In this document: positions 1 to 20,746 of the stretch, piece by piece | Numbering within the stretch: the stretch's first letter is position 1 | Layout of the letters: every line of letters starts with the position of its first letter | DNA from: a virus | Taxonomy: Duplodnaviria; Heunggongvirae; Uroviricota; Caudoviricetes | DNA: 29,162 bases | IMG/VR virus record: IMGVR_UViG_2563366805_000006 | Span: 1 to 29,162 of that record | Direction: 5' to 3' (one strand) | Notes under the pieces: model-generated | The model's database searches: none | What the model saw: the letters and a program-made list of their open reading frames with translations, nothing else | What the model was told of the DNA's origin: nothing | Program-made: the position numbers and the translations under genes

Positions 1-237
1 ATGGAACTGTTCGTCATTTCTTCAAAACTCCCTTTGCGTAAACGCATTAAACTGGTCATCCCGCTTTTTAAAGGTGTTATGACCATCCTCTGTGGTTACA
101 ACTGGTCGCTTAAGTTCAGGCCTGTCGGGAAAGCGCAGGCCGACGGATTAAGCTTTGACGTCTATCAGGACGACGTTACATCGCAAGATGCGCTTATCGT
201 CCTGGTCGATAGCAAACGAACTATGCTGCCTGATTAA
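1..237 (+). CDS. 3' end of an unidentified flanking ORF (open to window start), stop abuts the int stop codon
   Basis: Open frame from window start to TAA at 235-237, immediately followed by the convergent int stop at 238-240. No recognisable motif. It is antisense to a possible continuation of the right-flank gene across a candidate att core, so it could be a real host gene end or a chance ORF. Confidence 0.25.
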   Translation: MELFVISSKLPLRKRIKLVIPLFKGVMTILCGYNWSLKFRPVGKAQADGLSFDVYQDDVTSQDALIVLVDSKRTMLPD

Positions 238-2012: not shown

Positions 2013-2189
2013 ATGAATGAGCCTCGTTGCATTGCTCAGTTATTGCGTAACGAGAGTCCGAGGGCGATGGATTTCACTATTACCCACGGCAGAGGGCGCA
2101 AGGGCATCATCATCCGCACCAAAAAACAGAGCGTTATTAGCGCCGTTTTTGCTTTTCTGAAATCCCGGAGGTTCTGGAAATGCCTGTGA
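2013..2189 (+). CDS. Small hypothetical early protein (P2 orf78 position)
   Basis: 58 aa from the ATG 3 nt after the cox stop (the track ORF starts earlier at 1986). Basic composition, no motif recognised; start uncertain. Confidence 0.35.
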   Translation: MNEPRCIAQLLRNESPRAMDFTITHGRGRKGIIIRTKKQSVISAVFAFLKSRRFWKCL

Positions 2190-2680
2190 TGACACTTGGT
2201 ATCGTGGAGAAACAGCCTGCAGCTCTGCGCGGTCTGATTGGTAAATATCTGGCCGCGCCTCGCTGGCAGGATAGTTGCGATTTTTACAATCAGATGATGG
2301 AACGTGAGCGCCTGACCGTTTGTTTTCATGCTCAGTTAAAGCAGCGTCACGCGACGATGCGTTTTGAAGAAATGAACGATGTAGACCGTGAGCGATTAGT
2401 TTGCGCTATTGATGAGTTGCGTGCTGCATTTTGCAGACGTCGACAGGTTGGCGCGAGCGAGTATGCGTATATTAGTTTTTTGACGGTCAGCCAGCGCCGC
2501 ACTTTGTTTATGCATGCCGGATTAACTGAAAAAGAATTTAATCAGCCTTACTGGCGTATTAATGAAGATTCCTGTTATTGGCGTGATGCTTTATTTCGTG
2601 CCTTGCGGGAGCTTTTTAATTTATTTGAGTATGCACCAACAATATTAACCTCGGTAAAGCCTGAGCAATATCTGCATTAA
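2180..2680 (+). CDS. B: Replication protein B (helicase loader)
   Basis: 166 aa, same length as P2 gpB, with collinear similarity from memory. Start overlaps the upstream ORF. Confidence 0.85.
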   Translation: MPVMTLGIVEKQPAALRGLIGKYLAAPRWQDSCDFYNQMMERERLTVCFHAQLKQRHATMRFEEMNDVDRERLVCAIDELRAAFCRRRQVGASEYAYISFLTVSQRRTLFMHAGLTEKEFNQPYWRINEDSCYWRDALFRALRELFNLFEYAPTILTSVKPEQYLH

Positions 2681-2743
2681 ATAAACAACCGCAGTTTTTT
2701 ACGCACTTAATTGTGCGGGGCTTCTTTTTGTCTGGAGAAAGTC

Positions 2744-2968
2744 ATGCATACAGTAACAGGAAAGCAGCGCAGTAACTTCTCATTAATGCTGCAACAGGCG
2801 CGAGCCGAAGCGCAGGCAGATGCGGCGACGCGCTTTTCCTCTCATCTGGATAGTTTAATCCGTCATATAGCTGGCGCTGAGTTATCGCGTGTGGAGATAG
2901 TCGAGTTACTCAGTCAGGAATCCATCAAGTTTCATAATATCGGCCTTTCTCGTGGGGAGTCTATTTAA
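2744..2968 (+). CDS. Hypothetical early protein (P2 orf80 position)
   Basis: 74 aa from MHTVTG, with GGAGAAA RBS upstream. Its stop overlaps the next start (TAATG). Lies in a low-GC block. Confidence 0.5.
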
Positions 2969-3264
2969 TGTCTCTGATGCAATCCGTATTACTTAATAAC
3001 TGGCTAAAGATTGCGGTTATGAAAAACGGTGAATTATCGCTTGCTGACATTAAGCGCGATAAAGAAACCGGAGCGATGACGGAATCAACAATCGCTATTT
3101 ATTCGAGTGAATTAAACCTCCTGACGGATGTGGTCAATTTGCTTGTGAAACGCGCCGTTTTTCATAAGCAAATCACCACCGTAGATGAATTATCAAAATT
3201 AACTATCGAGCTAACCGGTTACTGCGCCGGTGAGTTTAAAAAACTGAACAGAGAGAGGAGCTAA
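2968..3264 (+). CDS. Hypothetical early protein (P2 orf81 position)
   Basis: 98 aa, AT-rich codon usage, translationally coupled to the upstream ORF. Confidence 0.5.
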   Translation: MSLMQSVLLNNWLKIAVMKNGELSLADIKRDKETGAMTESTIAIYSSELNLLTDVVNLLVKRAVFHKQITTVDELSKLTIELTGYCAGEFKKLNRERS

Positions 3265-3268
3265 ATCA

Positions 3269-3493
3269 ATGCCGGATTATATGGATCACATTCAGGAGCG
3301 ACAGACGGAATCACTGACTCGCCAGATTAACGCCGCTCGGGTGAAACCGTGCGGCGCTGCTGCATTGGTTTGCGAAGAATGTGACGCACCAATCCCTGCC
3401 GACCGCCGTGCGGCATATCCGTCGGCGACACGCTGTGTCTACTGTCAGTCAGCGCTTGAGTCAAAAGCTAAACACTTTCGGGGGCAGGCATGA
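3269..3493 (+). CDS. TraR/DksA-family C4 zinc-finger protein (P2 orf82 position)
   Basis: 74 aa with CxxC-(17)-CxxC: CEECDAPIPADRRAAYPSATRCVYCQ. GAGAGGAG RBS upstream. Confidence 0.65.
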   Translation: MPDYMDHIQERQTESLTRQINAARVKPCGAAALVCEECDAPIPADRRAAYPSATRCVYCQSALESKAKHFRGQA

Positions 3494-3765
3494 GCATTCG
3501 TATCGAGATTGGTGAGCGCTATGTCGTCACAAGTGACCGTTTTCAGTTCATTTTGCAGGAGAAAAAGACCGCCGAAACAGGGAAGAATGCCGGTAAAGAG
3601 TGGCTGGATGTTGTCGGCTATTACCCCAAATTAAACCAGCTCGTTTCCGGTCTGATTCATCACGATATTTTGAGCGGCAGCGCTGTCTCTTTTGAAGCGT
3701 TGAGCACTCAGGTTGAACTGCTAGGTAAGCAGTGTTTACGGGCTTTTGACACAAATGGCCGTTGA
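3490..3765 (+). CDS. Hypothetical early protein (P2 orf83 position)
   Basis: 91 aa, ATGA overlap with the upstream ORF; its end overlaps the A start. Confidence 0.5.
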   Translation: MSIRIEIGERYVVTSDRFQFILQEKKTAETGKNAGKEWLDVVGYYPKLNQLVSGLIHHDILSGSAVSFEALSTQVELLGKQCLRAFDTNGR

Positions 3766-6046
3766 TATTCGGGGGCGTTCTGCCCCTACACCGCCACCAC
3801 CATTTGCAAAAGGCACCGGCAAAGAGTTTGCCGGTGTTTACTCATGGAACGCGCCGCGTGAGGCTATTGGGCGCGAGAGACCCCTTACACGTGACGAGCT
3901 GCGTCAGGTGCAAGGCGTTTTATCCAAAATTGACCGCCTGCCTTACTTTTTAAGTTCTCTGTTTGCCTCGCGTTATGAATATATCAGGCGTAACAAAAGC
4001 CCTGTGCATGGGCTGTATTTCCTCAAGTCGACATTTCTGCGCCGGTTGTGGCCGCGCATTGAGCGGGTTAATCAGCGTAACGAAATGAATAGGGAGGCGT
4101 CGCTGCTGTTTCTTGCTGAAAGTGAGAATTACGCGCGCCTGCCGGGGATGAACGATAAAGAGCTGAAAAAATTTGCGTCTCGTATCGCCTCGCAGCTTTT
4201 CATCATGTACGAGGAGTTAAGCGACGCATGGGCTGAGGCGCACGGTGGCAAAGAGTCGCTTTTTACTGATGAGGCTCAGGCTCACCTGTACGGTCATGTT
4301 GCTGGCGCAGCTCGGGCTTTTAATGTTGCCCCGCTTTTCTGGAAGAAATACCGCAAAGGCCAGATGACAATCCGACAGGCATTTTCCGCCGTAGCTCGCC
4401 TGATTAACGATGAATGGTGGACTAACCAGCTCAAGGCGCAGCGCATGCGCTGGCATGAAGCGCTGCTGATTGCTGCAGGCGAGGTGAATAAAGACCGCTC
4501 GCCGTATGCCAGTAAAAATGCCGTCCGTGATGTACATGCACGCCGTCTGGCAAATCTTGAATACCTGAAATCCTGCGAGCTGGAAAACAAAGTTACCGGC
4601 GAACGTATCGACCTTATCAGCAAAGTGATGGGAAGTATTTCCAATCCTGAAATTCGCCGCATGGAGCTGATGAACACCATCGCGGGGATTGAGCGTTATG
4701 CCGCTGCTGAGGGTGATGTCGGTATGTTTATCACGCTGACTGCACCGTCGAAGTATCACCCGACACGTCAGGTCGGAAAGGGTAAAGATAAGACTGTACA
4801 GCTCAATCATGGCTGGAATGGTGAGGCTTACACCCCGAAGGATGCACAGCGTTACCTTTGCCGTATCTGGAGCCTGATGCGTACCGCTTTCAAAGATAAT
4901 GATTTGCAGGTCTACGGTATGCGTGTTGTCGAACCGCACCACGACGGGACGCCGCACTGGCACATGATGTTGTTTTGCAAGCGCCAGCAGCGCAAAGAAA
5001 TCACCGAAATTATGAGTCGTTATGCTCTCAAAGAGGATGGCGACGAGCGCGGTGCAGCTCGCAACCGCTTTCAGGCTAAACACCTGAACAAAGGCGGTGC
5101 GGCCGGGTACATCGCGAAATACATCGCCAAAAATATCGACGGTTACGCACTTGATGGCGAGCTCGATAAAGATACCGGCAAGCCGCTCAAAGATACCGCC
5201 GCCGCTGTTACTGCATGGGCGTCAACGTGGCGAATACCTCAGTTTAAGCCGATTGGCCTGCCGACGATGGGGGCTTACCGTGAGCTGCGCAAGCTGCCTA
5301 GCGGGGTAAGTATTGCTGATGAGTTTGACGAGCGTGTCGAAGCAACACGCGCCGCGGCTGATGGCGGTGATTTCGACCTGTATATCACCGCTCAGGGCGG
5401 CGCAAATGTCCCGCGCGACGGCCAGACCGTCAGGGTCGCCCGTAGCGTCAGTGATGAGGTTAATGACTACGAGGAAGATATCGAGAGGGTGGTCGGTATT
5501 TACGCGCCTCACCTCGGCGCGCGTCACGTTCACATTACCCGGTCATCAGAATGGCGCATCGTTCCAAAGGTTTTGGCCGTTGAGCCTTTGACCTTAAAAA
5601 GCGGCATCGCCGCGCCTCGGAGTCCTGTCAATAACTGTGGAAAGCTCACCGGCGGTGACGTTCCGGTTATGACCACTACACCGTCTGAGCATGCCGCAGC
5701 GGTGTTAAATCTTGTTGATGACGGGGCTATCGCATGGGATGACCCCGAAGTCGTGACGGCGCTCAAGGGCGCACTAAAACACGACGCGCGGCAGCAAAAT
5801 CGCCAGCAAAGAAGCGGAGAGCCATTAAAACCGCATGACGTTGCCCCATCAGGCAGGCTGACTAAATCCGAACGCGCGCAAATACCGCGTATCCGCTTTG
5901 ACCTTGCGCAGCATGGCATCACCCCGAAGCGCTGGGAGCTTGAGGCGCTGGCGCGTGGTGCGACCGTGACATACGACGGGAAGAGATTCACATATCCGGT
6001 CGCTGATGAGTGGCCGGGGTTTACTGGTATATCTGAATGGGGGTAA
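3755..6046 (+). CDS. A: Replication initiation protein A (HUH rolling-circle endonuclease)
   Basis: 763 aa from MAVDIRG (P2 gpA starts MAV...). HUH motif PHWHMMLF and paired active-site tyrosines YIAKYIAK visible. Near-collinear with P2 gpA. Confidence 0.95.
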   Translation: MAVDIRGRSAPTPPPPFAKGTGKEFAGVYSWNAPREAIGRERPLTRDELRQVQGVLSKIDRLPYFLSSLFASRYEYIRRNKSPVHGLYFLKSTFLRRLWPRIERVNQRNEMNREASLLFLAESENYARLPGMNDKELKKFASRIASQLFIMYEELSDAWAEAHGGKESLFTDEAQAHLYGHVAGAARAFNVAPLFWKKYRKGQMTIRQAFSAVARLINDEWWTNQLKAQRMRWHEALLIAAGEVNKDRSPYASKNAVRDVHARRLANLEYLKSCELENKVTGERIDLISKVMGSISNPEIRRMELMNTIAGIERYAAAEGDVGMFITLTAPSKYHPTRQVGKGKDKTVQLNHGWNGEAYTPKDAQRYLCRIWSLMRTAFKDNDLQVYGMRVVEPHHDGTPHWHMMLFCKRQQRKEITEIMSRYALKEDGDERGAARNRFQAKHLNKGGAAGYIAKYIAKNIDGYALDGELDKDTGKPLKDTAAAVTAWASTWRIPQFKPIGLPTMGAYRELRKLPSGVSIADEFDERVEATRAAADGGDFDLYITAQGGANVPRDGQTVRVARSVSDEVNDYEEDIERVVGIYAPHLGARHVHITRSSEWRIVPKVLAVEPLTLKSGIAAPRSPVNNCGKLTGGDVPVMTTTPSEHAAAVLNLVDDGAIAWDDPEVVTALKGALKHDARQQNRQQRSGEPLKPHDVAPSGRLTKSERAQIPRIRFDLAQHGITPKRWELEALARGATVTYDGKRFTYPVADEWPGFTGISEWG

Positions 6047-6048
6047 TT

Positions 6049-6237
6049 GTGAGAAAAATCTGTGTGATTGTTGGGTGGATTGCTGGGCTGTGGCTTTTCT
6101 TTCTGCTTCTTGGTTGGGCAGGTGAACAAGACCGCAAAGACTGTGAGGAGCGGATAGCAACAGAGCTGAAAACCACGGCTGTTTTTATAAACAATAAGTG
6201 CATGGTGAAGGGGTATGGTCGCTTTGACGGGAGGTGA
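6049..6237 (+). CDS. Small single-pass membrane protein (hypothetical), in the P2 accessory hotspot position
   Basis: About 62 aa from a GTG start (or ATG at 6037 overlapping the A stop). N-terminal hydrophobic helix ICVIVGWIAGLWLFFLLLGWAG followed by a charged tail EQDRKDCEER. No homolog recognised. Confidence 0.4.
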   Translation: MRKICVIVGWIAGLWLFFLLLGWAGEQDRKDCEERIATELKTTAVFINNKCMVKGYGRFDGR

Positions 6238-6345
6238 CCTATCTGACCCGAGCAAACGCCGCCGGTACTGAAACTTGCTTTCAGTGCTGGCGGGGTTGAA
6301 CAACGAGCCCCGCGAGGCGTTAGCCTGCCCCGTAGAGACCGCCCA

Positions 6346-6390
6346 CAACCGGCACTAATAAAGCCGGTTTTATTGTGCCTTTTTCTCGCG
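6346..6390 (+). terminator. Candidate rho-independent terminator after the early/replication operon
   Basis: Imperfect hairpin CACTAATAAA-GCCGG-TTTTATTGTG followed by CCTTTTTC. Confidence 0.4.
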
Positions 6391-6534
6391 ATTTCCCCGT
6401 TTTTTAGCCGTGCATGCAACAGGTGCATGGTTTTGCATGCGTCGTGGTTGCCAGTTCTGGCCGTGCGCCGTCAGTGCTGGCGCGGATCCAGAGTGGTCAT
6501 GCAACTGCATTAAAACCGACCCATAAAGCGGGCA

Positions 6535-6553
6535 GGCGTGGCGGGGAAAGCAT
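6535..6553. other. cos: cos site (19-nt cohesive-end sequence, 186-type)
   Basis: GGCGTGGCGGGGAAAGCAT matches the 186 cohesive end from memory (P2: GGCGAGGCGGGGAAAGCAC). Lies between A and Q, as in P2-family genomes. Confidence 0.6.
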
Positions 6554-6693
6554 TGCGCGCCAGCGGTGGTGCGTAATAATAAAAATTATCGTCTGAGCGC
6601 GTCGTGATGGCGCTGTCGTGGTTGCTGTCGGCTCGTTGGTGGTCTGGCGTGGTCGTGCGCGCGTGGCGCGTCTGAGGCGTGATGGTTTCGGGG

Positions 6694-6720
6694 TATGAAA
6701 AAGCCGCCATGCTGGCGGCT
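6694..6720 (-). terminator. Rho-independent terminator of the leftward P/Q packaging operon
   Basis: On the minus strand, hairpin AGCCGCCA-GCA-TGGCGGCT followed by TTTTTC, 10 nt downstream of the Q stop. Confidence 0.55.
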
Positions 6721-6729
6721 TGAGGGGGA

Positions 6730-7752
6730 TTATTCCGGGTTGTCGAGGGTGTACTCTTTGAACCTGATGACCTCCATGCCGAGCCAGTCGTTTACTTCCC
6801 TGAATCTGTCCTGTAGAGGCGACAGCTCGTTACGCACAAATACCTTTGCCACCTTCTCAACGTCACCAAGTGAGCCGATATTCTCGGGCTTACCACCCAT
6901 AAGCTGGAACGGCACGCGGTGCGCGTCCATCAGGTCGGCGGCGCTGGCTTTCTTAATGTTGAAAAAGTCATCCTTTGTGGCGACCTCGCTCAGGGGCACG
7001 ATTTTGATGCCGTCCGGTTTTCCGCCGGGAGCGTAGAAAAACAGGTTCTTAAAGTTGCCGAGCCCTTTCGAGTTTCGCATCGCCTCGCGCAGCGATTCGA
7101 CGTCGGTCGCGCTCTGCGCCGGGTCGGTCACATACATGATGTAACCCGCATGCGCGCCGTTCTGGTAATACTTGCGGCGGAACAGCGTCGCGGATTCATT
7201 CAGCCAGGCAGAATTAAGCGCGCTGAGATATTCGGGCAGGCCGTAAATCTCCTGATTAATATCGGGCTCCAGCAGGTGAAACACGGTATCAGGCGCGAAC
7301 TCATGCGGCAGCGTGAAGTTTTCCACAAACCAGAATATAGAATCGTCGACCCCGCGCCGGGTGTATTTGGCCGGTGAGGCCAGCAGCTTGATTAACTGGC
7401 CAGTGACGCTGTGGCGCTGCTCAAGAAAGGCGTTGCCGAATACCAGATAGTCGAGCGCAAAGCGGCTGAAATCCTGACGGGACAGCAACGGGTGCGGAAT
7501 GTAGGTGCTCGCGAGCACGTTGCGCTTAACGTAAATCGGTGAACTGTGATGTACAGCAGAGCGCAGGCTCTTTGCCAGCCCGGAGAAGCTGACCGGCGGC
7601 TCGTACCACTTGCCGTTACTGATGCACTCGACGTAATCCAGAATGTCGCGCTTATCGAGTACCGGCACCGGCTCGCCGAAGGTGAACGCCTCCATTTTTT
7701 GTGGGGCGCTGGCGGTCGTGGTGACTGTTTTGCGTGGCTTGCGCTTGCTCAT
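6730..7752 (-). CDS. Q: Portal protein Q
   Basis: 340 aa, collinear with P2 gpQ. Adjacent to cos and leftward, as in P2. Confidence 0.95.
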   Translation of the reverse strand: MSKRKPRKTVTTTASAPQKMEAFTFGEPVPVLDKRDILDYVECISNGKWYEPPVSFSGLAKSLRSAVHHSSPIYVKRNVLASTYIPHPLLSRQDFSRFALDYLVFGNAFLEQRHSVTGQLIKLLASPAKYTRRGVDDSIFWFVENFTLPHEFAPDTVFHLLEPDINQEIYGLPEYLSALNSAWLNESATLFRRKYYQNGAHAGYIMYVTDPAQSATDVESLREAMRNSKGLGNFKNLFFYAPGGKPDGIKIVPLSEVATKDDFFNIKKASAADLMDAHRVPFQLMGGKPENIGSLGDVEKVAKVFVRNELSPLQDRFREVNDWLGMEVIRFKEYTLDNPE

Positions 7753-8495
7753 GCTGCCACCTCACCCGCTGCAACAGCGAAAGACCAGTCGCAGCCAAAC
7801 AGTAGACGATAATCATCGTCGCTGTATTCACGTTTAATTTCCTCAGGCGCAAAGAGATTGCACCCGCGCTGACATGCTGCATCCAGAGTGACCGACTGAC
7901 GCCAGACACCATCAGTGCAAAATACGCTGTCGCCGGTATTGATTCGCGGTGACGGTCGGCGCTTGCGAGTTGTGCCGTTCCATACCCTGAATGCTGCGTA
8001 GCTGTCTGATGGTGTGGTGAACATCGTCAGGCTGTGGCGTTTATGGCAGGCGATAGCCGCTGCGACTTTTGCCGCTCTTAGCGGGTTATTGAACCATCCG
8101 AACTCATCAAGGTAGACGTTACCAGCCAGCGCGGCGCAATGGGATTCCTCGCCGACAAAGCTGATAACCGCCCCGCCGTCGAGCTGCAGGCTGTGGCCGT
8201 TACTCGTCAGGCGGACGCCGACGCGCGCCGAAAGGTTGTTCATGTACATCAGCGCCACGCGCGCATGCTCAACGGTGTGAGCAAACCAGACCTGATTATC
8301 GCCCGTTGTCAGCGCATCGAGCAGCGCCTCGCGACTAAAGAGCTGCGTTGCGCCAATCTGGCGCGATTTGGTGATGATGCGGTCGATATTGAGTTTCCCG
8401 ACACGCAACCATGTTGCCTGATAGTCAAAGCTGTCATTGTGCAGAATATCGGCCATTGCCTGAATCTGGCTTTGTGAGAAAACGTTATTTTTCAT
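7749..8495 (-). CDS. Terminase large-subunit ATPase-core paralogue lacking the N-terminal region and the nuclease domain (extra gene between Q and P)
   Basis: 248 aa. Aligns to residues about 124-372 of the adjacent gpP. Deviant Walker A KSRQIGAT, Walker B YLDE (P: YVDE) and coupling motif TMFTTPS (P: TYFSTPS) are retained. Start overlaps the P stop (TAATG) and stop overlaps the Q start (ATGA). Confidence 0.8.
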   Translation of the reverse strand: MKNNVFSQSQIQAMADILHNDSFDYQATWLRVGKLNIDRIITKSRQIGATQLFSREALLDALTTGDNQVWFAHTVEHARVALMYMNNLSARVGVRLTSNGHSLQLDGGAVISFVGEESHCAALAGNVYLDEFGWFNNPLRAAKVAAAIACHKRHSLTMFTTPSDSYAAFRVWNGTTRKRRPSPRINTGDSVFCTDGVWRQSVTLDAACQRGCNLFAPEEIKREYSDDDYRLLFGCDWSFAVAAGEVAA

Positions 8496-10264
8496 TAATT
8501 AAACTCCAGAATGGATTTAGGCTGCATGCCGCTACCGGCGGAAAGTGGTTCGTTTAACAGGGCGTGCATGGTCGCCCATGCGATATCGGCGTGACTGGCT
8601 TCCTCGGTGCGGCTGGCCTCGTAGGTAGCGCTGCGCCCGCTACTGGTCATGGTTTTGCGGATGGACATAAACGACTGCGTGACGTCGGTCGCCCCGGCGT
8701 CGTACTCCAGACAGCCACGGCGAATGGTGTCTTTTGCCTTGAGCACCATCGCGGTTTTCATCTCAGGCGTGTAACGGATGCCGCGTGCCGCCGGGTAGAA
8801 TGAGCGCACCAACTGGAACACGCCGAGACCGAGGCCGGTTGCGTCAATGCCGATGTATTCGACGTTGTATTTCTCGGTCAGTTTGCGGATGCCCTCGGCC
8901 TGCGCGGCAAAGTCCATGCCTTTCCACTGGTGGCGCTCCAGCATGCGGAACTTGCCACCCGAGACCACCGGCGGCGCGAGCACGACGCACCCGGCGCTGT
9001 CGCCGGTGTGTGACGGGTCGTAGCCAATCCAGACAGGACGCGAGCCGAACGGATGGTCGGCGAACGGGGCGAAGTCCTCCCATTCTTCCATCACGTCGAC
9101 CATGCAGCGCTGCAGCTCCTCGAACGGGAATACCGACGCTTTATCGTCGACAAACTCGCACATAAACAGGTTATTAAAGTCCTCATCACTGTTTTCGCGT
9201 TTGAGCTGGTCGAGGTCGAACAGGGTGCAGCCACCGGCAAGGGCATCCTCAATGGTGACAATCTGCCGCCACTGGCCATCGTCGCAGAGCTGGCCACCGG
9301 CGAGCGCGCTGTGACTGATGTCGATTTCGATGCGGTCGGCAATCCGGCTCCGCCCCTTGTTGAACAGCTCGCCAGACCAGAAGGGGTAAGCGCCGTGCGC
9401 CAGCGTGGAAGGTGTCGAAAAGTAGGTTGAGCGCAGGTGCTTCTGCGAGGCCATGCCCGACGCGACTTTGCGCAGCTTCTGAAAATTCGGGATCCAGAAT
9501 ATTTCATCGACATACAGGTCGCCGTTATGGCTCTGCGCGGTGTTGGAATTGGTACCGAGAAAAATCAGCTTTGCGCCGTTGTTGCCGATGACAATCGGGT
9601 CGCCGGTCAGGTCGACGTCGACCAGCCGCGCAAACTGGATGATGTACTCGCGGAACACGTAAGCCTGAGTTTTACTGGCCGACAGAAATATCTGGTTGTG
9701 GCCGGTCTTGAGTGCGCGCAGCAGCGCCTCGCGGGAGAAATAGAACGTCGCGCCAATCTGGCGGGATTTGAGAATGTCGCGAATACGGTGCGCCAGCCCT
9801 GCGCGGTACCACTGCAACTGGTACTCGAAAGACTGGTCGAAAAATAGTTCCTCCAGTTTCCCGATAGCCTCGTCGCTGAAAAAGTTCTTTTTCGGCTTCT
9901 TACGCTCACCCTTGTTACGGTTGGCGACATTGGGGTTAAGGTCGACCTCGTTGCCGGTTTGGCTGTAGCGGTTAACGCGCGCCAGTCGCTCAATCTGTCG
10001 CCCGAGCAGGTCAATCTCTTTGAAGTCGCCGCCTGACTTTTGCGGCTTGGCGATGAGCTGAATCAGCCTGGCCTCAAGGCTGCTTTCGACGCGGGAAATC
10101 GGTGCGATGCCGTCCCAGCCGTCGCGCTGCTTCCAGCTCTGCACGGTCGGGCGCTTAACCTGCAGCATTTCGGCAATCTGTGGCACGGAAAAACCCTGCC
10201 AGTAAAGCAGCGATGCCTGCCGTCGCGGGTCATGCAACAAGGTTGTATCGGTGGAAATGGTCAT
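8495..10264 (-). CDS. P: Terminase large subunit P (ATPase plus nuclease)
   Basis: 589 aa (P2 gpP 590). ATPase motifs KSRQIGAT / LYVDE / TYFSTPS, then a C-terminal RNaseH-like nuclease region (VWIGYDPSHTGDSAG ... GIDATGLG ... HADIAWATMHAL). Confidence 0.95.
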   Translation of the reverse strand: MTISTDTTLLHDPRRQASLLYWQGFSVPQIAEMLQVKRPTVQSWKQRDGWDGIAPISRVESSLEARLIQLIAKPQKSGGDFKEIDLLGRQIERLARVNRYSQTGNEVDLNPNVANRNKGERKKPKKNFFSDEAIGKLEELFFDQSFEYQLQWYRAGLAHRIRDILKSRQIGATFYFSREALLRALKTGHNQIFLSASKTQAYVFREYIIQFARLVDVDLTGDPIVIGNNGAKLIFLGTNSNTAQSHNGDLYVDEIFWIPNFQKLRKVASGMASQKHLRSTYFSTPSTLAHGAYPFWSGELFNKGRSRIADRIEIDISHSALAGGQLCDDGQWRQIVTIEDALAGGCTLFDLDQLKRENSDEDFNNLFMCEFVDDKASVFPFEELQRCMVDVMEEWEDFAPFADHPFGSRPVWIGYDPSHTGDSAGCVVLAPPVVSGGKFRMLERHQWKGMDFAAQAEGIRKLTEKYNVEYIGIDATGLGLGVFQLVRSFYPAARGIRYTPEMKTAMVLKAKDTIRRGCLEYDAGATDVTQSFMSIRKTMTSSGRSATYEASRTEEASHADIAWATMHALLNEPLSAGSGMQPKSILEFN

Positions 10265-10429
10265 TGATGCCTCGCCGTAGTGGATTCAGGGCAAGGCTAC
10301 TTAATGGCCGTCAGTGATTCGCTAAGGTGCTGTTGTGTGGGCGGTTGTCCAGTCGTCATTGGTGGTCTGGTGTGTCCTGAGTCTGGAAACTGGCGGTGAC
10401 CAGTAACTCCAACCTCAGGACTCCTGACA
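10265..10429. promoter_or_regulatory. Divergent late promoter region (P leftward, O rightward; expected Ogr-dependent)
   Basis: Intergenic region between divergent late operons, as in P2. Inverted repeats TCCTGAG (10375-10381) and CTCAGGA (10413-10419). No perfect TGT-N12-ACA Ogr box found. Confidence 0.4.
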
Positions 10430-11284
10430 ATGGCAAAAAAAGTCTCAAAGTTCTTTCGCATCGGCGTCGAGGGTGATACCTGCGACGGGCGCATTATCAG
10501 CGCCAGCGATATTCAGGAAATGGCCGAAACCTACGACCCGCGCGTCTACGGTTGCCGTATCAACCTTGAACACCTGCGCGGCCTGCTGCCCGATGGCGTA
10601 TTCAAGCGTTATGGCGATGTGGTCGAACTGAAAGCCGAGAAGATTGACGACGATTCTGCGCTTAACGGCAAATGGGCGTTGTTCGCTAAAATCACCCCGA
10701 CCGATGACCTTATCGCGATGAATAAAGCCGCGCAGAAGGTCTACACCTCAATGGAAATTCAGCCGAATTTTGCCAATACCGGCAAATGCTACCTCGTCGG
10801 CCTTGCGGTCACCGATGACCCGGCGAGCCTCGGCACTGAATACCTCGAATTCTGCCGCAACGCGAAGCACAACCCTTTGCAGCGCTTTAAGGCCAACCCT
10901 GAAAACGTCTTTTCCGCTGCCACGCTGGCCGAGCTGGAATTTGAAGACGTTCCCGACACGGTGCTCAACAGCCTGGCCGATAAGGTGAAAGCCATTTTCA
11001 GCCGTAAGCAGGTCAGCGACGATGCGCGCCTGAATGATGTGCATGAAGCGGTGACCACCGTCAGCGAGCATGTGCAGACAAATCTGACCGCGCAGGATAA
11101 ACGCCTTTCCGATATGGAAACCGCGTTTGCCACTTTCAAACAGGAACTGACCGGCAAGGTTGAAGAAACCAGCCAGGCATTTTCCGCCCTGAAAACCACC
11201 CTCGACAAAACCGAAAGTTTCAGCCAGCCGCGACGCACAAAAGCCAGCGGCGGTGGCGGCGATGAGCTGCTGACCGACTGCTGA
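10430..11284 (+). CDS. O: Capsid scaffolding protein O
   Basis: 284 aa (P2 gpO 284). First gene of the rightward head operon. Confidence 0.9.
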   Translation: MAKKVSKFFRIGVEGDTCDGRIISASDIQEMAETYDPRVYGCRINLEHLRGLLPDGVFKRYGDVVELKAEKIDDDSALNGKWALFAKITPTDDLIAMNKAAQKVYTSMEIQPNFANTGKCYLVGLAVTDDPASLGTEYLEFCRNAKHNPLQRFKANPENVFSAATLAELEFEDVPDTVLNSLADKVKAIFSRKQVSDDARLNDVHEAVTTVSEHVQTNLTAQDKRLSDMETAFATFKQELTGKVEETSQAFSALKTTLDKTESFSQPRRTKASGGGGDELLTDC

Positions 11285-11359
11285 TAAAGCGCAGACCGAA
11301 ACAGGGCGGCAACCCCGCCCGATGCTGTGACTAACCGATTAATTCAAACAGGAAATACT

Positions 11360-12427
11360 ATGCGTCAGGAAACCCGTTTTAAGTTCAATGCCTATCTGAC
11401 CCAGCTCGCCAAACTGAACGGCATCAGCGTTGATGACGTCAGCAAAAAATTCACCGTCGAGCCGTCCGTCACGCAAACGCTGATGAACACCGTGCAAGCG
11501 TCATCCGCATTTTTGCAGATGATTAACATTCTGCCGGTCGCAGAAATGAAGGGCGAGAAAATCGGCGTCGGTGTGACCGGCACCATCGCCAGCACGACCG
11601 ACACCTCGGGCGACAAAGAGCGCCAGACCGCCGATTTCACTGCGCTTGAGTCCAACAAGTACGAGTGCAATCAGATTAACTTTGACTTCCACCTGACCTA
11701 TAAACGCCTCGACCTGTGGGCGCGTTTTCAGGACTTCCAGCGCCGCATCCGCGACGCCATTGTCCAGCGTCAGGCGCTGGATTTCATTATGGCCGGGTTC
11801 AACGGTACCACCCGCGCTGATACCTCAGACCGCAGCAAAAACCCGATGCTGCAGGATGTGGCCGTCGGCTGGCTGCAGAAGTACCGCAACGAAGCCCCGG
11901 CGCGCGTGATGAGCAAAATCACCGCTGAGGACGGTACCGTTATTTCTGACGTGATTCGCGTTGGCAAAAACGGCGACTATGAGAACCTCGACGCGCTGGT
12001 GATGGACGGTACCAACACCCTGATTGACGAGATTTATCAGGATGACCCGAAACTCGTTGCCATCGTTGGCCGTAAGCTGCTGGCCGACAAATATTTCCCG
12101 CTGGTCAACAAACAGCAGGAAAATACCGAGTCGCTGGCGGCGGATATCATCATCAGCCAGAAGCGCATCGGCAACCTGCCAGCCGTTCGCGTGCCGTACT
12201 TCCCTGCGAATGCGGTATTCGTGACCACGCTGGAAAACCTCTCTATCTACTTCATGGATGAGAGTCACCGCCGCAGCATTGATGAGAACCCGAAAAAAGA
12301 CCGCGTGGAAAACTACGAGTCGATGAACATCGACTATGTGGTCGAGGCGTATGCCGCCGGGTGCCTGCTGGAAAATATCACCCTGGGCGATTTCACCGCG
12401 CCAGCAGCACCGGAAAGCGGAGCCTAA
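11360..12427 (+). CDS. N: Major capsid protein N
   Basis: 355 aa from MRQETRFKFNAYL (identical start to P2 gpN). AGGAAATA RBS. Track ORF start at 11327 rejected. Confidence 0.95.
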   Translation: MRQETRFKFNAYLTQLAKLNGISVDDVSKKFTVEPSVTQTLMNTVQASSAFLQMINILPVAEMKGEKIGVGVTGTIASTTDTSGDKERQTADFTALESNKYECNQINFDFHLTYKRLDLWARFQDFQRRIRDAIVQRQALDFIMAGFNGTTRADTSDRSKNPMLQDVAVGWLQKYRNEAPARVMSKITAEDGTVISDVIRVGKNGDYENLDALVMDGTNTLIDEIYQDDPKLVAIVGRKLLADKYFPLVNKQQENTESLAADIIISQKRIGNLPAVRVPYFPANAVFVTTLENLSIYFMDESHRRSIDENPKKDRVENYESMNIDYVVEAYAAGCLLENITLGDFTAPAAPESGA

Positions 12428-12430
12428 ACC

Positions 12431-13180
12431 ATGACGAGCCCCGCACAGCGTCACATGATGCGGGTCTCGGCCTCTCAAGCCGCGCAGCGGGAGCAAGCCC
12501 CGCTGCGCCATGCAACCGCCTATGAGCAGATGCTGGTAAAGCTGGCCGAAGACCGCCGCACGTTAAAAAACATCCGTTCAAATGAGCGTAAAGCCGAGAA
12601 AAAGCGCGAGCTGCTGCCGTTCTATGCGCCGTGGGTCGCCGGTGTGCTGGCTGATGGCCGTGGTGCGCAGGATGACATTGTCATGACCGTCATGCTGTGG
12701 CGTCTCGATGCCGGTGATATAGCTGGCGCGCTGGAAATTGCACCCTACGCACTGAAATACGGCCTCACCTCTGACCATCGCCGCACGACACCTTACATGC
12801 TGGTTGAGGAGGTGGCACTTGCCGCACAGCGCCTGCGCGATGCCGGTGAGCCTGTCGACCTCGCATTACTGCTGACCACCCTCAGCCTGACCGACGGCGC
12901 TGACGTTCCCGATATGGTGCGCGCCCGTCTGCATAAGGTGACTGGCCTGACCCTGCGTGATGCCGGTCAGAACGCCGACGCGCTGGCGCAGTTTCAGCGC
13001 GCGATGCAGCTCGACCGCAATGCCGGTGTGCGCAAAGAGATTGAGCGACTGGAGCGCGCATTGAAGCCAAAGCCAGAGGCAGCACCCCGTAAAACGACTA
13101 AACCGCGCACGCGCAAACCTGCCACCAAACCGGCGGCAAAGCGCGGGCGTCCACCAAAGGCGGTAAAAACCGCCGGTTAA
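12431..13180 (+). CDS. M: Terminase small subunit M
   Basis: 249 aa (P2 gpM 247). Lys/Arg/Pro-rich C-terminal tail. Position after N. Confidence 0.9.
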   Translation: MTSPAQRHMMRVSASQAAQREQAPLRHATAYEQMLVKLAEDRRTLKNIRSNERKAEKKRELLPFYAPWVAGVLADGRGAQDDIVMTVMLWRLDAGDIAGALEIAPYALKYGLTSDHRRTTPYMLVEEVALAAQRLRDAGEPVDLALLLTTLSLTDGADVPDMVRARLHKVTGLTLRDAGQNADALAQFQRAMQLDRNAGVRKEIERLERALKPKPEAAPRKTTKPRTRKPATKPAAKRGRPPKAVKTAG

Positions 13181-13783: not shown

Positions 13784-13986
13784 TGAAAGTCTACGCGATG
13801 CAGGGCGACACCCTCGACGCGCTTTGCGCCCGGTATTACGGGCGCACTGAGAACGTGGTCGAGACGGTGCTGCAGGCTAATCCCGGTCTGTCTGAGCTGG
13901 GCGTCATTCTGCCGCATGGCACGGCGATTGACCTGCCCGACGTTGAAACCTCACCTACGGCGGAGACCCTGAACCTATGGGACTGA
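13783..13986 (+). CDS. X: Tail protein X (LysM-like)
   Basis: 67 aa. MKVYAMQGDTLDALCARYYGRTE ... closely resembles P2 gpX. ATGA overlap with L. Confidence 0.85.
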   Translation: MKVYAMQGDTLDALCARYYGRTENVVETVLQANPGLSELGVILPHGTAIDLPDVETSPTAETLNLWD

Positions 13987-14198
13987 GTATGGAAAAAATC
14001 ACCACGTTTATCGCCTACTGGCTAGCCGTGGGTCTGGCGTATTTCGGGGCAATGTCACCCGAAAAACTGGCGCTGTATGTGGGTAGTCTGTGCGCCATTT
14101 TTACGGCGGCGGTGAATTTCTGGTACCGGCGCAAAACCTTTCGTTACCTGACCGAAATGGGAATCGACAAAGGGGTGACCCGTGAGCTCAATCGTTAA
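13977..14198 (+). CDS. Holin (two TM helices; possibly pinholin type)
   Basis: 73 aa with two hydrophobic segments (FIAYWLAVGLAYFGA; LALYVGSLCAIFTAAVNFW) and a basic C-terminus. Not similar to P2 Y. Alternative start at 13989. Confidence 0.6.
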   Translation: MGLSMEKITTFIAYWLAVGLAYFGAMSPEKLALYVGSLCAIFTAAVNFWYRRKTFRYLTEMGIDKGVTRELNR

Positions 14199-14694
14199 AC
14201 GTTGCAGTGTGGCCGCAGTGCTGGCGCTGGCGGCACTGATGCCTGATTTTCGTCTGCTGAATACCTCGCCTGATGGTCTGGCGCTGATTGCCGACCTTGA
14301 AGGGTGTCGCCTGACACCATACCAGTGCAGCGCGGGCGTGTGGACGTCAGGCATCGGCCACACTGCCGGGGTGGTACCGAAACGCGATATCACCGAGCGC
14401 CAAGCGGCGGCAAATCTGGTCGCCGACGTGCTGAACACCGAGCGCCGTCTCGCGGTTTGCGTGCCGGTCACTATGCCGCAGCCGGTTTACGACGCGCTGG
14501 TCAGTTTCTCTTTTAACGTAGGCACCGGCGCGGCCTGCCGCTCTACGCTGGTTTCTTACATCAAGCGTCATCAGTGGTGGCAGGCATGCGACCAGCTTAC
14601 CCGCTGGGTGTATGTCAATGGCACTAAAAACAAAGGGCTGGAAAACCGCCGCGCGCGGGAACTGGCGTATTGCATGAAAGGAGTAACCCAATGA
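14182..14694 (+). CDS. SAR endolysin (T4-lysozyme fold with N-terminal signal-anchor-release domain)
   Basis: 170 aa from a GTG start with AAGGGG RBS. N-terminal hydrophobic Cys-containing segment CSVAAVLALAALM, then catalytic E-8aa-C-5aa-T (LEGCRLTPYQCSAGVWTSGIGHT). C-terminal CDQLTRWVY resembles phage 21 R / P1 Lyz. Not the P2 K type. Confidence 0.85.
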   Translation: MSSIVKRCSVAAVLALAALMPDFRLLNTSPDGLALIADLEGCRLTPYQCSAGVWTSGIGHTAGVVPKRDITERQAAANLVADVLNTERRLAVCVPVTMPQPVYDALVSFSFNVGTGAACRSTLVSYIKRHQWWQACDQLTRWVYVNGTKNKGLENRRARELAYCMKGVTQ

Positions 14695-16549: not shown

Positions 16550-16617
16550 ATATTGTGTGAACCACCACCGGAGGCGCGCGAATTGGCGCGGTTCCAGACC
16601 AGAGGCATCCTTGCACT

Positions 16618-18518: not shown

Positions 18519-19119
18519 CCGGCTGTTACCCGTTGGCTCGTCGCCGCTGGAAGTTGCCGCCGCTGCCGCGCTCTCTGAGATTCAGCGCGTGCCGGTACCG
18601 CTGCGCACCCTGTGGAACTGGCGCACCTGCCCGGTAAACCTGCTGCCTTATCTGGCGTGGGCGCTGTCGGTCGACAGGTGGGATGAGAAGTGGCCGGAGG
18701 CGACAAAGCGCAGCGTCTGCGCGTCCTCGTTTTTCGTCCATCAGCACAAAGGCACCATCAGCGCATTGCGTCGGGTGGTTGAGCCGCTCGGCTTTCTGAT
18801 TGAAGTGCGCGAGTGGTGGCAGCTCGACGAGGAGCCAGGCACATTCCGCCTTGTTGTCGGCGTGCTCGACAGCGGCATCACTGATGAAATGTATCAGGAG
18901 CTTGAGCGTCTGATTAATGACGCCAAACCGGCAAGCCGTCACCTGACGGGGCTGGCTATCAGCCTGAGTGCGACCGGCGAGCTGTATGTCGGTGCGGGAT
19001 GCTACCACGGCGACGCGCTGACCGTTTACCCCTACACCCCCGAGGAAATTATCGTCGGCGGTGAATATCACCCGGCCTCGGCCATCCATTTGATTGATAA
19101 CCTGAGAGTGAACGCATGA
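18511..19119 (+). CDS. I: Baseplate/tail-fibre attachment protein I
   Basis: 202 aa, overlaps the J end. P2 gpI position. Confidence 0.85.
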   Translation: MSDRLLPVGSSPLEVAAAAALSEIQRVPVPLRTLWNWRTCPVNLLPYLAWALSVDRWDEKWPEATKRSVCASSFFVHQHKGTISALRRVVEPLGFLIEVREWWQLDEEPGTFRLVVGVLDSGITDEMYQELERLINDAKPASRHLTGLAISLSATGELYVGAGCYHGDALTVYPYTPEEIIVGGEYHPASAIHLIDNLRVNA

Positions 19120-20120: not shown

Positions 20121-20716
20121 TGGCGAAAGCAACACTGAACAAAAATGGAATTGCGACGAAAGCCGGTGATATGACCGTCTATAACTACGATGGTGAAACG
20201 CGCGAGTATCTGTCGACTTCTGTCGAATATCTTGCTGTGGGGGTGGGTATTCCGGCCAATTCCTGCACCGATGAGCCGGTCGATGAAAAGGCGGGGTATG
20301 CCATTTGCCGCACGGTCAGTTTTGACGGGTGGGATTATGTTATCGACCACCGGGGCGAGACTGTGTATGACACGGAAACCGGCCAGCCTGTCGAGATAAC
20401 CGGGCTCGGTGATTACCCTGATAATGTGACCACCATCGAACCACTGACGCCTTATGACCGCTGGAACGGTAGCGAATGGGTTACGGATGCGGATGCACAG
20501 AAAAGCGGTCAGATGCTGGAAGCGGAGCAGCAAAAATCCGCATTTCTGGCCGAAGCGCAAAGCACTATCAGCCTGTGGCAGACCGAGCTGCAGCTCGGCA
20601 TCATCAGTGACGATGACAAGGCCAGCCTGATTGCGTGGATGAAATACATTCAGGCGCTGAACGCGGTCGACACCTCAACGGCACCGGATATCGAGTGGCC
20701 GGTTAAACCAGAATAA
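20120..20716 (+). CDS. G: Tail fibre assembly chaperone G
   Basis: 198 aa. ATGG overlap with the H stop. Conserved Tfa C-terminal region LIAWMKYIQALNAVDTS. Confidence 0.8.
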   Translation: MAKATLNKNGIATKAGDMTVYNYDGETREYLSTSVEYLAVGVGIPANSCTDEPVDEKAGYAICRTVSFDGWDYVIDHRGETVYDTETGQPVEITGLGDYPDNVTTIEPLTPYDRWNGSEWVTDADAQKSGQMLEAEQQKSAFLAEAQSTISLWQTELQLGIISDDDKASLIAWMKYIQALNAVDTSTAPDIEWPVKPE

Positions 20717-20721
20717 CGCAA

Positions 20722-20746
20722 GGCGGGCTGATGCCCGTCTTTTTTA
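20722..20746 (+). terminator. Rho-independent terminator after G
   Basis: Hairpin CGGGC-TGAT-GCCCG followed by TCTTTTTTAT, 6 nt after the G stop. Confidence 0.5.

What the first reader, a model, noticed from the sequence alone, without database searches (positions are those of the whole stretch)
6047..6729. P2 accessory hotspot between A and Q is almost empty
In P2 this interval carries tin and old, and in related prophages it is a known hotspot for exchangeable anti-phage cargo. Here it is about 680 bp and holds only one small membrane ORF, a candidate terminator, and the cos region. This prophage therefore carries no large defence cargo at the canonical site, which makes the unusual gene between Q and P more noteworthy.
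Basis: partly seen in the sequence, partly recalled or inferred. Interest (0 to 1): 0.45.

Follow-up and report, generated by a model that had tools for sequence, protein, structure and literature searches.

The report
Empty cargo site in P2/186-type prophage
The stretch between the replication gene and the portal gene of this E. coli P2-like prophage, where related phages usually carry anti-phage genes, holds only one small membrane-protein gene, two terminators, a conserved hairpin and the DNA-packaging (cos) site; this is a rare but ordinary unloaded state of a known hotspot.

Summary
Window 6047-6729 is exactly the gap between the stop of gpA and the stop of the portal gene. It holds:
- one real 62-aa membrane-protein gene (6049-6237)
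- a conserved 73-nt hairpin element (6252-6324)
- the homologue of the phage 186 terminator t95b (6347-6374)
- the 19-nt cohesive end, identical to that of 186 (6535-6553)
- the portal-operon terminator (6697-6719, minus strand)

No PADLOC defence model matches anything here. Elsewhere in the window only the repressor's helix-turn-helix domain matches. The same library finds PD-Lambda-5 at this site in a 96%-identical Salmonella relative.

At 683 bp the gap is the shortest in two surveys of IMG/VR P2-like contigs (medians 2.4-2.5 kb). It recurs in 1 of 5,426 complete E. coli genomes and in no sequenced phage record.

The site has two cargo slots separated by the hairpin element. Both slots are at their minimum here, at about the frequency expected if the slots vary independently.

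The "unusual gene between Q and P" is phage 186 gene W (94% identical). It belongs to the 186-type packaging module and is not cargo. W occurs with loaded and unloaded hotspots alike.

Verdict: correct and ordinary, of low interest. The hairpin element is the most interesting by-product.

The parts
3746..6046 (+). gpA replication endonuclease; left border of the hotspot
   Evidence: Pfam Phage_GPA E=3.6e-116 and phrog_91. 83% aa identity to P2 A.
6049..6237 (+). Small gene for a 62-aa protein (the tool lists an ATG start at 6037, giving 66 aa). It has an N-terminal transmembrane helix and a conserved C-terminal domain of about 35 aa with two cysteines. It begins 3 nt after the gpA stop, and no promoter of its own was found.
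   Evidence: phrog_14089 E=1.4e-19. 8 clusters of 62-66 aa in Salmonella and E. coli, with a near-invariant C-terminal half and a variable hydrophobic N-terminus. 19 representatives among 1.84 billion proteins, with both Cys invariant. No match in Pfam, NCBIfam, PADLOC or PDB. No sigma-70-like promoter in 5900-6900.
6252..6324 (+). Conserved 73-nt branched hairpin element that separates the two cargo slots of the hotspot
   Evidence: Folds at -40.8 kcal/mol on the + strand against -27.5 on the - strand. The 163-nt context has z=-3.3 against shuffles. It is a discrete unit with sharp ends on both sides, in 513 of 5,426 E. coli genomes and 66 phage records. One stem pair changes C-G to U-A in 7 of 63 unique copies, and a G-U becomes A-U in 15 of 63. 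No Rfam match.
6347..6374 (+). Homologue of the phage 186 terminator t95b: stem AACCGGC/GCCGGTT, 9-nt loop, T-rich tail
   Evidence: Aligns with 186 positions 30436-30463, annotated t95b. The stem, loop and tail were read directly from the sequence.
6404..6534 (.). cos-proximal non-coding DNA on the right-end side, conserved in both P2-type and 186-type phages
   Evidence: Homology to P2-type relatives L001 and L007 resumes at 6404, and to canonical P2 at 6506. It is 88-96% identical to 186-type phages.
6535..6553 (.). 19-nt cohesive end (cos cleavage region)
   Evidence: GGCGTGGCGGGGAAAGCAT is identical to 186 positions 1-19, annotated cos. P2 cosL differs at 2 positions. The 186 record's right end matches up to window 6534.
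6554..6696 (.). cos-proximal non-coding DNA on the left-end side
   Evidence: Aligned with the left ends of 186 and P2. RefSeq annotates an ORF across cos in a relative, equivalent to window 6510-6710 on the - strand. Its frame is broken by 1-nt indels in 186 and it has no family match.
6697..6719 (-). Intrinsic terminator of the late P-W-Q operon (tW in 186, tQ in P2)
   Evidence: The hairpin GCCGCCATGCTGGCGGC followed by a T-run on the minus strand is conserved in 186 and P2, at the positions annotated tW and tQ.
6730..7752 (-). Portal protein (P2 Q, 186 Orf2); right border of the hotspot
   Evidence: Pfam Phage_portal and phrog_68 E=1.6e-170. 78% aa identity to P2 Q.
7749..8495 (-). Homologue of phage 186 gene W: a stand-alone paralogue of the terminase large subunit's ATPase domain. 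It is part of the 186-type packaging module, not hotspot cargo.
   Evidence: 94% identical over 248 aa to 186 W, in the same gene order as the 186 record. Pfam Terminase_6N E=2e-22. 38% identical to residues 125-371 of the neighbouring gpP. Exact 777-bp presence/absence difference against relatives that lack it. A family of 245-254 aa proteins across Enterobacterales, with the P-loop motif TK[SA]RQIGA and the Walker-B glutamate invariant.
8495..10264 (-). Terminase large subunit (P2 P, 186 Orf12)
   Evidence: Terminase_5, Terminase_6N and Terminase_6C domains. 88% aa identity to P2 P.

Best explanation
The interval is the unloaded ground state of the known cos-proximal cargo hotspot of P2-like phages. 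It keeps only housekeeping parts:
- the last gene of the early operon, a small membrane protein
- a conserved 73-nt hairpin element
- the t95b-type terminator, which stops rightward transcription before cos
- the cos site with its flanks
- the terminator of the leftward P-W-Q late operon

The hotspot has two cargo slots. Slot 1 runs from the gpA stop to the hairpin element. Slot 2 runs from the element to cos. In 186-type phages slot 1 holds tum and orf97. In many P2-type relatives slot 2 holds defence systems such as PD-Lambda-5. Here slot 1 is at its minimum of about 203 bp (the small gene only) and slot 2 is at its minimum of about 211 bp (terminator plus cos flank).

Shown: the anatomy, the homologies, the absence of any recognisable defence gene, and the rarity of the state.

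Inferred: the state arose by homologous exchange between a P2-type early region and a 186-type packaging region. The crossover would lie in or next to the shared hairpin element, or between two copies of the element in one genome. Such an exchange yields a recombinant that inherits neither parent's cargo.

The prophage is otherwise complete, at about 28.6 kb, and is presumably viable.
For: Anatomy and homology.

Mosaic structure.
- Window 2037-6323 is 96.4% identical to Salmonella prophages L011 and L014.
- Window 6253-12500 is 94.6-95.6% identical to 186-type prophages L008 and L006.
- The two homology blocks overlap only in the element.

Where cargo sits in relatives.
- In L007 and L011 cargo lies to the right of the element.
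- In 186, L002, L003 and L008 it lies to the left.
- L014 and six IMG/VR loci carry two element copies about 405 bp apart, flanking a phrog_11386 gene.

Surveys. Slot 1 is minimal in 5 of 61 loci, slot 2 in 20 of 61 and both in 2 of 61. Independence predicts 1.64 (Fisher p=1.0). The gap is the minimum in both surveys.

No defence genes: PADLOC, with the positive control.

Not a one-off. The same arrangement is seen at 98.4%, 97.6% and 94.4% identity in two IMG/VR contigs and in E. coli CAVP776.

Complete prophage. Every P2 core gene from int to ogr is present in order. The att core was mapped to the 3' part of cpxQ.
Against: No parental pair was identified. The best left-arm and right-arm relatives are only 95-97% identical, so the crossover point is inferred from module boundaries and not observed.

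The surveys sample IMG/VR contigs that may be redundant. One survey is conditional on presence of the element. The other covers only the 80 closest portal relatives.

PADLOC (2023) finds only described systems, so an undescribed function of the small gene is not excluded.

About 439 bp of the prophage's left end lies outside the window.

Viability of the phage is assumed, not tested.
Confidence: 0.78

Rival explanations
1. The small membrane-protein gene (6049-6237) is itself the cargo. It would be an undescribed superinfection-exclusion or defence protein acting at the inner membrane or periplasm, for example by blocking DNA entry of competing phages.
For: It lies in the hotspot. It is a real gene under purifying selection, with a transmembrane helix and a conserved two-cysteine C-terminal domain. 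It has no assigned function in any library. Small inner-membrane proteins are a common form of phage exclusion factor (general knowledge).
Against: No PADLOC match. It co-occurs with real cargo (PD-Lambda-5) downstream in L011-L013, so it is not an alternative to cargo. It starts 3 nt after the gpA stop with no promoter of its own. It should therefore be made with the early lytic operon, which the repressor shuts off in a lysogen. Homologues sit inside the early or replication gene strings of unrelated prophages, one type with PolA and SNF2 genes and one lambdoid-like. There too they are translationally coupled to neighbouring genes.
Confidence: 0.12
2. The gap is a deletion scar in a decaying prophage, or an assembly collapse between two copies of the 73-nt element, rather than a natural state of a working phage.
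For: Some relatives carry two direct copies of the element. These could mediate deletion or confuse an assembler.
Against: All P2 core genes are intact and in order. The same arrangement appears in three other, diverged sequences, including a finished chromosome. Both ends of the gap coincide with module boundaries seen in dozens of phages. A deletion between two element copies in a live phage would in any case be the mechanism of the best explanation, not a rival to it.
Confidence: 0.05
3. The non-coding part (6238-6534) hides a non-protein cargo, such as a small RNA, a toxin-antitoxin RNA or a retron-like RNA.
For: The 73-nt element is strongly structured, strand-biased towards the + strand and shows some compensatory change.
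Against: No Rfam match at the gathering threshold or at E<=1, apart from one chance-level hit outside this stretch, at 6695-6760. The whole stretch is homologous to the non-coding right end of phage 186 (88-97% identity) and is present in hundreds of P2-like phages whatever cargo they carry. It therefore behaves as backbone, not cargo.
Confidence: 0.04

Closest known systems
P2 tin-old ('TO') region: the gpA-gpQ cos-proximal defence hotspot of P2-like phages (Odegrip et al. 2006; Rousset et al. 2022, PMC9122126; PMC13586616)
   Same: Same genomic position, between the replication endonuclease gene and the portal gene next to cos. Same flanking core genes and the same cos type.
   Different: P2 carries orf91, tin and old here in 3,460 bp. 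This prophage carries one 62-aa gene in 683 bp and no recognisable defence gene. PMC13586616 reports that none of 1,511 P2-like prophages had both main hotspots without genes. Here the second site, G-FI, is gene-free at 131 bp, and this site holds a single small gene.
Right end of phage 186 (A, p95/LexA, tum, orf97, t95b, cos) with its left end (cos, tW, portal, W, terminase)
   Same: From window 6253 rightward the sequence is 186-type. This covers the 73-nt element, the t95b terminator, an identical 19-nt cos, tW, the portal gene, W and the terminase gene, at 88-95% nucleotide identity.
   Different: The SOS operon (p95, LexA box, tum, orf97) is absent. gpA and the whole early and immunity region are P2-type (C repressor and Cox), not 186-type.
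Prophage of E. coli CAVP776 (NZ_CM176338.1) and IMG/VR contigs IMGVR_UViG_2663763457_000007 (L050/L145), IMGVR_UViG_2886092810_000005 (L143) and locus L114
   Same: Same contiguous order: gpA, small ORF, element, terminator, cos, portal. The gap is 683-684 bp.
   Different: Sequence identity is 94-98%, so these are not the same phage. CAVP776 lacks gene W, and RefSeq annotates no gene at all in its gap.
Integron cassette arrays (ORF plus folded attC site); an analogy only, for the 73-nt element
   Same: In several arrangements a short structured element directly follows the last gene of a cassette-like unit. Examples are orf97 in 186, the phrog_11386 gene in L006 and L014, and the small ORF here. 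Two copies can flank one small gene.
   Different: No dedicated recombinase is known or was found. Large cargo in slot 2 (for example PD-Lambda-5 in L011) is not followed by a second copy of the element. Ordinary homologous recombination on a conserved patch explains the data equally well.

Membership tests
gpA-gpQ cos-proximal hotspot of P2-like phages | Lies between the replication endonuclease gene (gpA) and the portal gene (gpQ), next to cos, in a P2-like genome | tested here: met
   All P2 core genes are in P2 order.
gpA-gpQ cos-proximal hotspot of P2-like phages | Occupied by variable accessory genes, often anti-phage systems | tested here: not met
   Only a 62-aa gene is present. PADLOC was negative, while the same search found PD-Lambda-5 in relative L011. 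The locus is the hotspot, in its unloaded state.
P2/186-type cos site | 19-nt cohesive-end sequence with conserved flanks between the right-end terminator and the portal-operon terminator | tested here: met
   19 of 19 identical to 186 cos and 17 of 19 to P2 cos. Flanks are aligned.
P2/186-type cos site | Cleaved by the phage terminase to give 5' cohesive ends | not testable with these tools
   Needs end-sequencing of virion DNA.
Phage 186 gene W (the gene between Q and P) | 248-aa protein similar to the terminase ATPase domain, encoded between the portal and terminase genes with overlapping start and stop codons | tested here: met
   94% identity over the full length to 186 W, in the same order and with the same overlaps.
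Known anti-phage defence systems (PADLOC-DB 2.0) | Profile match of at least one protein in the interval to a defence-system component | tested here: not met
   no match for any ORF of at least 46 aa tested in 6021-6710.
Intrinsic terminators t95b and tW/tQ | G+C-rich hairpin followed by a T-run, at the positions annotated in 186 and P2 | tested here: met
   Positional homology and hairpin conservation. Actual termination was not tested.
Rfam RNA families (for the 73-nt element) | Covariance-model match at the gathering score | tested here: not met

The most novel reading that the evidence does not exclude
The 73-nt hairpin element (6252-6324) may not be passive backbone. It could be the functional joint of the P2-family hotspot: a structured sequence carried at the 3' end of small cassettes that serves as the preferred crossover point for swapping, stacking or losing cargo. 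It might act as RNA or as single-stranded DNA during rolling-circle replication. The hotspot would then be a two-slot, cassette-like array, and this prophage would show its empty ground state. That state is the 'deletion then re-acquisition' intermediate that PMC13586616 did not observe in 1,511 P2-like prophages.
Probability: 0.15. Interest if true: 0.6.

Novelty: already known. Interest (0 to 1): 0.22.

Why it matters
In itself it matters little. It is a correctly read but negative observation about a well-described hotspot, and every part of it (cos, terminators, 186 gene W, a catalogued small-protein family) is already in public records.

It has two modest uses.

First, it bears on how cargo turns over. 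A recent survey argues that P2 hotspots swap cargo without passing through an empty stage (PMC13586616). This prophage and three diverged relatives show that a nearly empty stage does exist and persists. In the sample taken here it occurs at about the rate expected if the two slots vary independently.

Second, it gives the smallest natural backbone of the hotspot. It shows which sequences remain when all cargo is gone. It also exposes a conserved 73-nt structured element that marks the boundary between the two cargo slots in hundreds of phages of Escherichia, Salmonella, Klebsiella, Yersinia and Erwinia.

Tried and rejected
- Exact search of the small-ORF/element junction in 185,579 species-representative genomes found nothing. 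The arrangement is rare and the junction sequence is not conserved base for base.
- Rfam at the gathering threshold over the whole window, and at E<=1 over 5950-6800, gave only one chance-level hit, Hrs1 at E=0.93.
- Pfam, NCBIfam, PADLOC and a PDB profile search gave nothing for the small protein.
- The AlphaFold2 model of the small protein had mean pLDDT 69, and below 65 in the C-terminal domain. It shows one long helix and a beta-hairpin. I did not run a fold search because matches to so small and uncertain a model would be meaningless.
- I suspected that the prophage separates the CpxQ small RNA from cpxP. This was rejected. The att core is the 3' 47 nt of cpxQ, and in the close relative L027 the attL side regenerates a complete cpxQ with a compensated terminator stem.
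- The minus-strand ORF 6021-6428 has a weak match to phrog_17882, confined to its first 29 aa, which overlie the conserved terminator region. I treated it as an artefact of ORF calling in conserved non-coding DNA.
- The ORF across cos, 6510-6710 on the minus strand, is annotated in RefSeq for a relative. I rejected it as coding, because 1-nt indels in 186 break the frame and it has no family match.
- The papers of Odegrip et al. 2006 and Christie and Calendar 2016 are not held in the library. Statements about the minimal cos region and about the genetics of 186 gene W rest on my own knowledge and on GenBank annotation only.
- att repeats were not found by a direct repeat search, because attL lies outside the window.

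Full report
**What the window is.**
The window holds almost all of a P2-like prophage of E. coli.
- Every P2 core gene is present in P2 order, from int (241-1251, - strand) through C, cox, B, orf80-83, A, Q, P, O, N, M, L, X, the lysis genes, R, S, V, W, J, I, H, G, FI, FII, E, T, U and D to ogr (27285-27512).
- The right junction with the chromosome is at 28135. From there the sequence is E. coli K-12 cpxQ-fieF.
- In the closest relative, E. coli 600029, the left junction lies about 439 bp beyond the window's first base, and attL regenerates cpxQ. The element is therefore about 28.6 kb.
- The early and immunity region is P2-type. From just before cos through the head genes the DNA is 186-type.

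**Checking the observation.**
gpA ends at 6046 and the portal gene ends at 6730 on the minus strand. Reading rightward, the gap holds the following.

1. *A small gene.* The ORF tool lists 6037-6237 (66 aa). Homologues are 62 aa and begin at the position of the GTG at 6049, 3 nt after the gpA stop and downstream of a GGGGG run.
   - It matches phrog_14089 (E=1.4e-19), a family of unknown function.
   - Its eight nearest clusters come from Salmonella and E. coli. Their hydrophobic N-termini vary freely and their C-terminal 37 residues are almost invariant.
   - An exhaustive profile search of 1.84 billion representatives finds only 19 members, of 42-141 aa. In the 16 that I aligned (52-73 aa) the two cysteines are invariant.
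   - It is therefore a real gene for a small membrane-anchored protein. From the positive-inside rule and the cysteine pair I infer that the C-terminal domain faces the periplasm and is disulfide-bonded.
   - The AlphaFold2 model is only moderately confident (mean pLDDT 69): one long helix followed by a beta-hairpin.
2. *A 73-nt branched hairpin,* 6252-6324.
3. *A terminator,* 6347-6374, at the position of the 186 terminator t95b.
4. *The cohesive end.* The 19-nt sequence at 6535-6553 is identical to that of 186 and differs from P2 at two positions.
5. *The late-operon terminator.* The hairpin at 6703-6719 has its T-run on the minus strand (6697-6702). It is the tW/tQ terminator of the late operon.

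The other ORFs in the gap are not credible genes. The one across cos (6510-6710, - strand), which RefSeq annotates in a relative, loses its frame in 186 and has no family match.

**Is the site really without defence cargo?**
- None of the ORFs in or overlapping the gap matches a PADLOC model.
- I scanned 41 ORFs covering the window. Only helix-turn-helix models matched, and all matches lay on the C repressor.
- The search is sensitive enough. Salmonella prophages are 96.4% identical to the window from B through gpA, the small gene and the hairpin element. In them the same library finds PD-Lambda-5 A and B (E down to 5.6e-94) in a 3.45-kb insert just to the right of the element.
- P2's two other accessory sites are also unoccupied here. 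The S-V gap is 68 bp (P2 has orf30 there) and the G-FI gap is 131 bp (P2 has fun/Z).
- The remaining non-core genes lie at the att-proximal ends. They are a phrog_3807 gene for an exported protein after ogr, and one or two small ORFs beyond int. None matches a defence model.

**How unusual is it?**
- In P2 the gap is 3,460 bp. In 186 the stretch from the gpA stop to the right end alone is about 1.8 kb.
- I ran two surveys of IMG/VR viral contigs. In 111 loci retrieved through the hairpin element, 61 gaps could be measured. They range from 684 to 4,499 bp with a median of 2,505.
- In the 80 closest portal relatives, retrieved without regard to the element, 50 gaps could be measured. They range from 683 to 5,228 bp with a median of 2,422.
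- The window sits at the minimum of both surveys, together with two contigs in each.
- Among 5,426 complete E. coli genomes, 1,694 match part of the region. Only one, CAVP776, has the same contiguous arrangement. None of 50,697 phage records has it.
- A recent survey of 1,511 P2-like prophages found none in which both main hotspots lacked genes. Its authors argued that cargo is swapped rather than lost and regained (PMC13586616). This prophage comes as close to empty as any I found.
- The state is not a one-off. Versions 98.4%, 97.6% and 94.4% identical exist elsewhere.

**How the site is built.**
Comparison with relatives shows two cargo slots separated by the 73-nt element.
- *Slot 1* runs from the last codons of gpA to the element.
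  - Here it holds the small gene.
  - In E. coli 600029, which is otherwise 96-97% identical on both sides, it holds two different small genes (phrog_519 and phrog_11386).
  - In 186-type phages it holds tum and orf97, or a DinI-like gene.
- *Slot 2* runs from the element to the cos flank.
  - Here it holds only the 186-type terminator.
  - In P2-type relatives it holds a 311-aa gene or PD-Lambda-5.
- *Slot sizes.* They take discrete values. Slot 1 has a floor of 203 bp and slot 2 a floor of about 211 bp. Of 61 loci, 5 have minimal slot 1, 20 have minimal slot 2 and 2 have both. Independence predicts 1.64. On this sample the unloaded state is what free combination of the two slots would yield.

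**The element.**
- It has sharp ends on both sides.
- It occurs in 513 of 5,426 E. coli genomes and in 66 phage records from Escherichia, Salmonella, Klebsiella, Yersinia and Erwinia.
- It folds much better on the + strand, because of G-U pairs.
- It shows a few compensatory changes.
- It has no Rfam match.
- L014 and six IMG/VR loci carry two copies about 405 bp apart around a phrog_11386 gene.

**Most likely history (inferred).**
The left homology block is P2-type and ends at 6323. The right block is 186-type and begins at 6253. They overlap only in the element.
- A crossover there between a P2-type phage with slot-2 cargo and a 186-type phage with slot-1 cargo would give one product with both cargos and one with neither. 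The window has the structure of the second product.
- The hairpin loop offers a very weak hint. It reads CTTGC here, CTTGT in the left-arm relative and CTCGC in 186. That is only two sites.
- No parental pair was found, so this step is inference.

**The gene between Q and P.**
- It is 94% identical over all 248 residues to the W protein of phage 186. The 186 reference record has the same portal-W-terminase order with the same overlapping stops and starts.
- It is a stand-alone copy of the terminase ATPase domain (Terminase_6N; 38% identical to gpP residues 125-371). It lacks the N-terminal DNA-binding domain and the C-terminal nuclease domain.
- The family is conserved at 245-254 aa across E. 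coli, Enterobacter, Edwardsiella, Hafnia, Pectobacterium and Yersinia. Its P-loop motif and Walker-B glutamate are invariant.
- It is a clean 777-bp presence/absence difference among otherwise collinear phages.
- Its presence is unrelated to hotspot load. W-bearing loci have gaps from 683 to 3,473 bp, and the equally unloaded CAVP776 prophage lacks it.
- It belongs to the 186-type packaging module and is not a substitute for missing cargo. Its mechanism is not given in any source I could read. That W is an essential head gene in 186 is my recollection of the older genetics, not something checked here.

**Where the small gene belongs.**
It is not hotspot cargo in the usual sense.
- It stays in place upstream of real cargo in the Salmonella relatives.
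- No promoter of its own was found.
- Its homologues lie inside translationally coupled strings of early genes in unrelated prophages. One type has PolA, SNF2 and DUF2800 genes, and another is lambdoid-like.
- This points to an early lytic role at the membrane. A defence or exclusion role cannot be excluded, and I give it about 12%.

**Verdict.**
The feature is a rare but unremarkable state of a known locus, and every part of it is already in public records. The one thing worth carrying forward is the conserved 73-nt element, which divides the hotspot into two independently varying slots.

Noticed in passing
window 6252-6324: A conserved 73-nt branched hairpin with sharp module boundaries. It lies to the left of cargo in some P2-like phages and to the right of it in others. 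L014 and six IMG/VR loci carry it on both sides of a small gene, about 405 bp apart. It is found in 513 of 5,426 E. coli genomes and in 66 phage records from five genera. It folds better on the + strand, shows a few compensatory changes and has no Rfam family.
   Followed up: partly
window 7749-8495 (- strand): Homologue of phage 186 gene W (94% identical). It is a stand-alone terminase ATPase domain encoded between the portal and terminase genes, with the P-loop and Walker-B glutamate conserved across a 245-254 aa family in Enterobacterales. It is a clean 777-bp presence/absence difference among collinear phages. No source I could read explains what a second, nuclease-less ATPase domain does in packaging.
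   Followed up: partly
window 27564-28067 (- strand): A gene between the ogr terminator and attR matches phrog_3807 (unknown function). The likely product starts at Met33 (135 aa) with a signal-peptide-like N-terminus (MLNLKPTIAVATILLSVSTYA). A promoter-like site lies at 28084-28057, and an AT-rich inverted repeat lies upstream at about 28091-28116. It is a candidate lysogenic-conversion gene. PADLOC, Pfam and NCBIfam were all negative.
   Followed up: partly
window 28135-28181; locus L027 8516-8562: The prophage integrates into the 3' 47 nt of the small-RNA gene cpxQ (the cpxP 3' UTR). In the close relative, the attL side rebuilds cpxQ with a terminator stem that carries compensating changes (CCCCCTCATGATGAGGGGG against CCCCCACATGCTGTGGGGG). 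Lysogens would therefore make a slightly different CpxQ terminator.
   Followed up: yes
window 16550-16617 and 20717-20847: The two other classical P2 accessory sites are also unoccupied: 68 bp where P2 has orf30 (S-V) and 131 bp where P2 has fun/Z (G-FI). At about 28.6 kb the element is close to a minimal P2-like genome.
   Followed up: yes
window 1-237 (+ strand); locus L027 8682-9017 (- strand): Between int and attL lie a 78-aa ORF, which starts at the window's first base, and, in the relative, a divergent and slightly overlapping 111-aa ORF. Neither matches any PHROG or PADLOC model, and the 78-aa ORF, the only one of the two scanned against Pfam and NCBIfam, matches nothing there either. 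This att-proximal position is listed as a minor defence hotspot in PMC13586616.
   Followed up: partly
loci L011-L013, 4431-7579: Salmonella enterica prophages are 96.4% identical to the window's early region. Exactly where the window has 175 bp of 186-type terminator sequence, they carry three genes: a ParB_N-like gene, an unknown gene and a Dam-type methylase gene. These match PD-Lambda-5 A and B.
   Followed up: yes
window 13977-14694 and 19116-20716: The holin and endolysin are not homologous to P2 Y and K (they match phrog_20 and phrog_7). The tail fibre H is half the length of P2 H (334 aa against 669 aa) and has a different C-terminus. The assembly gene G is also non-P2. These are module swaps in the lysis and host-range genes.
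   Followed up: no
locus L006 183-880: In the closest relative, E. coli 600029, gene B is interrupted by an IS1 element. That copy of the phage is probably defective, whereas B is intact in the window (2180-2680).
   Followed up: no
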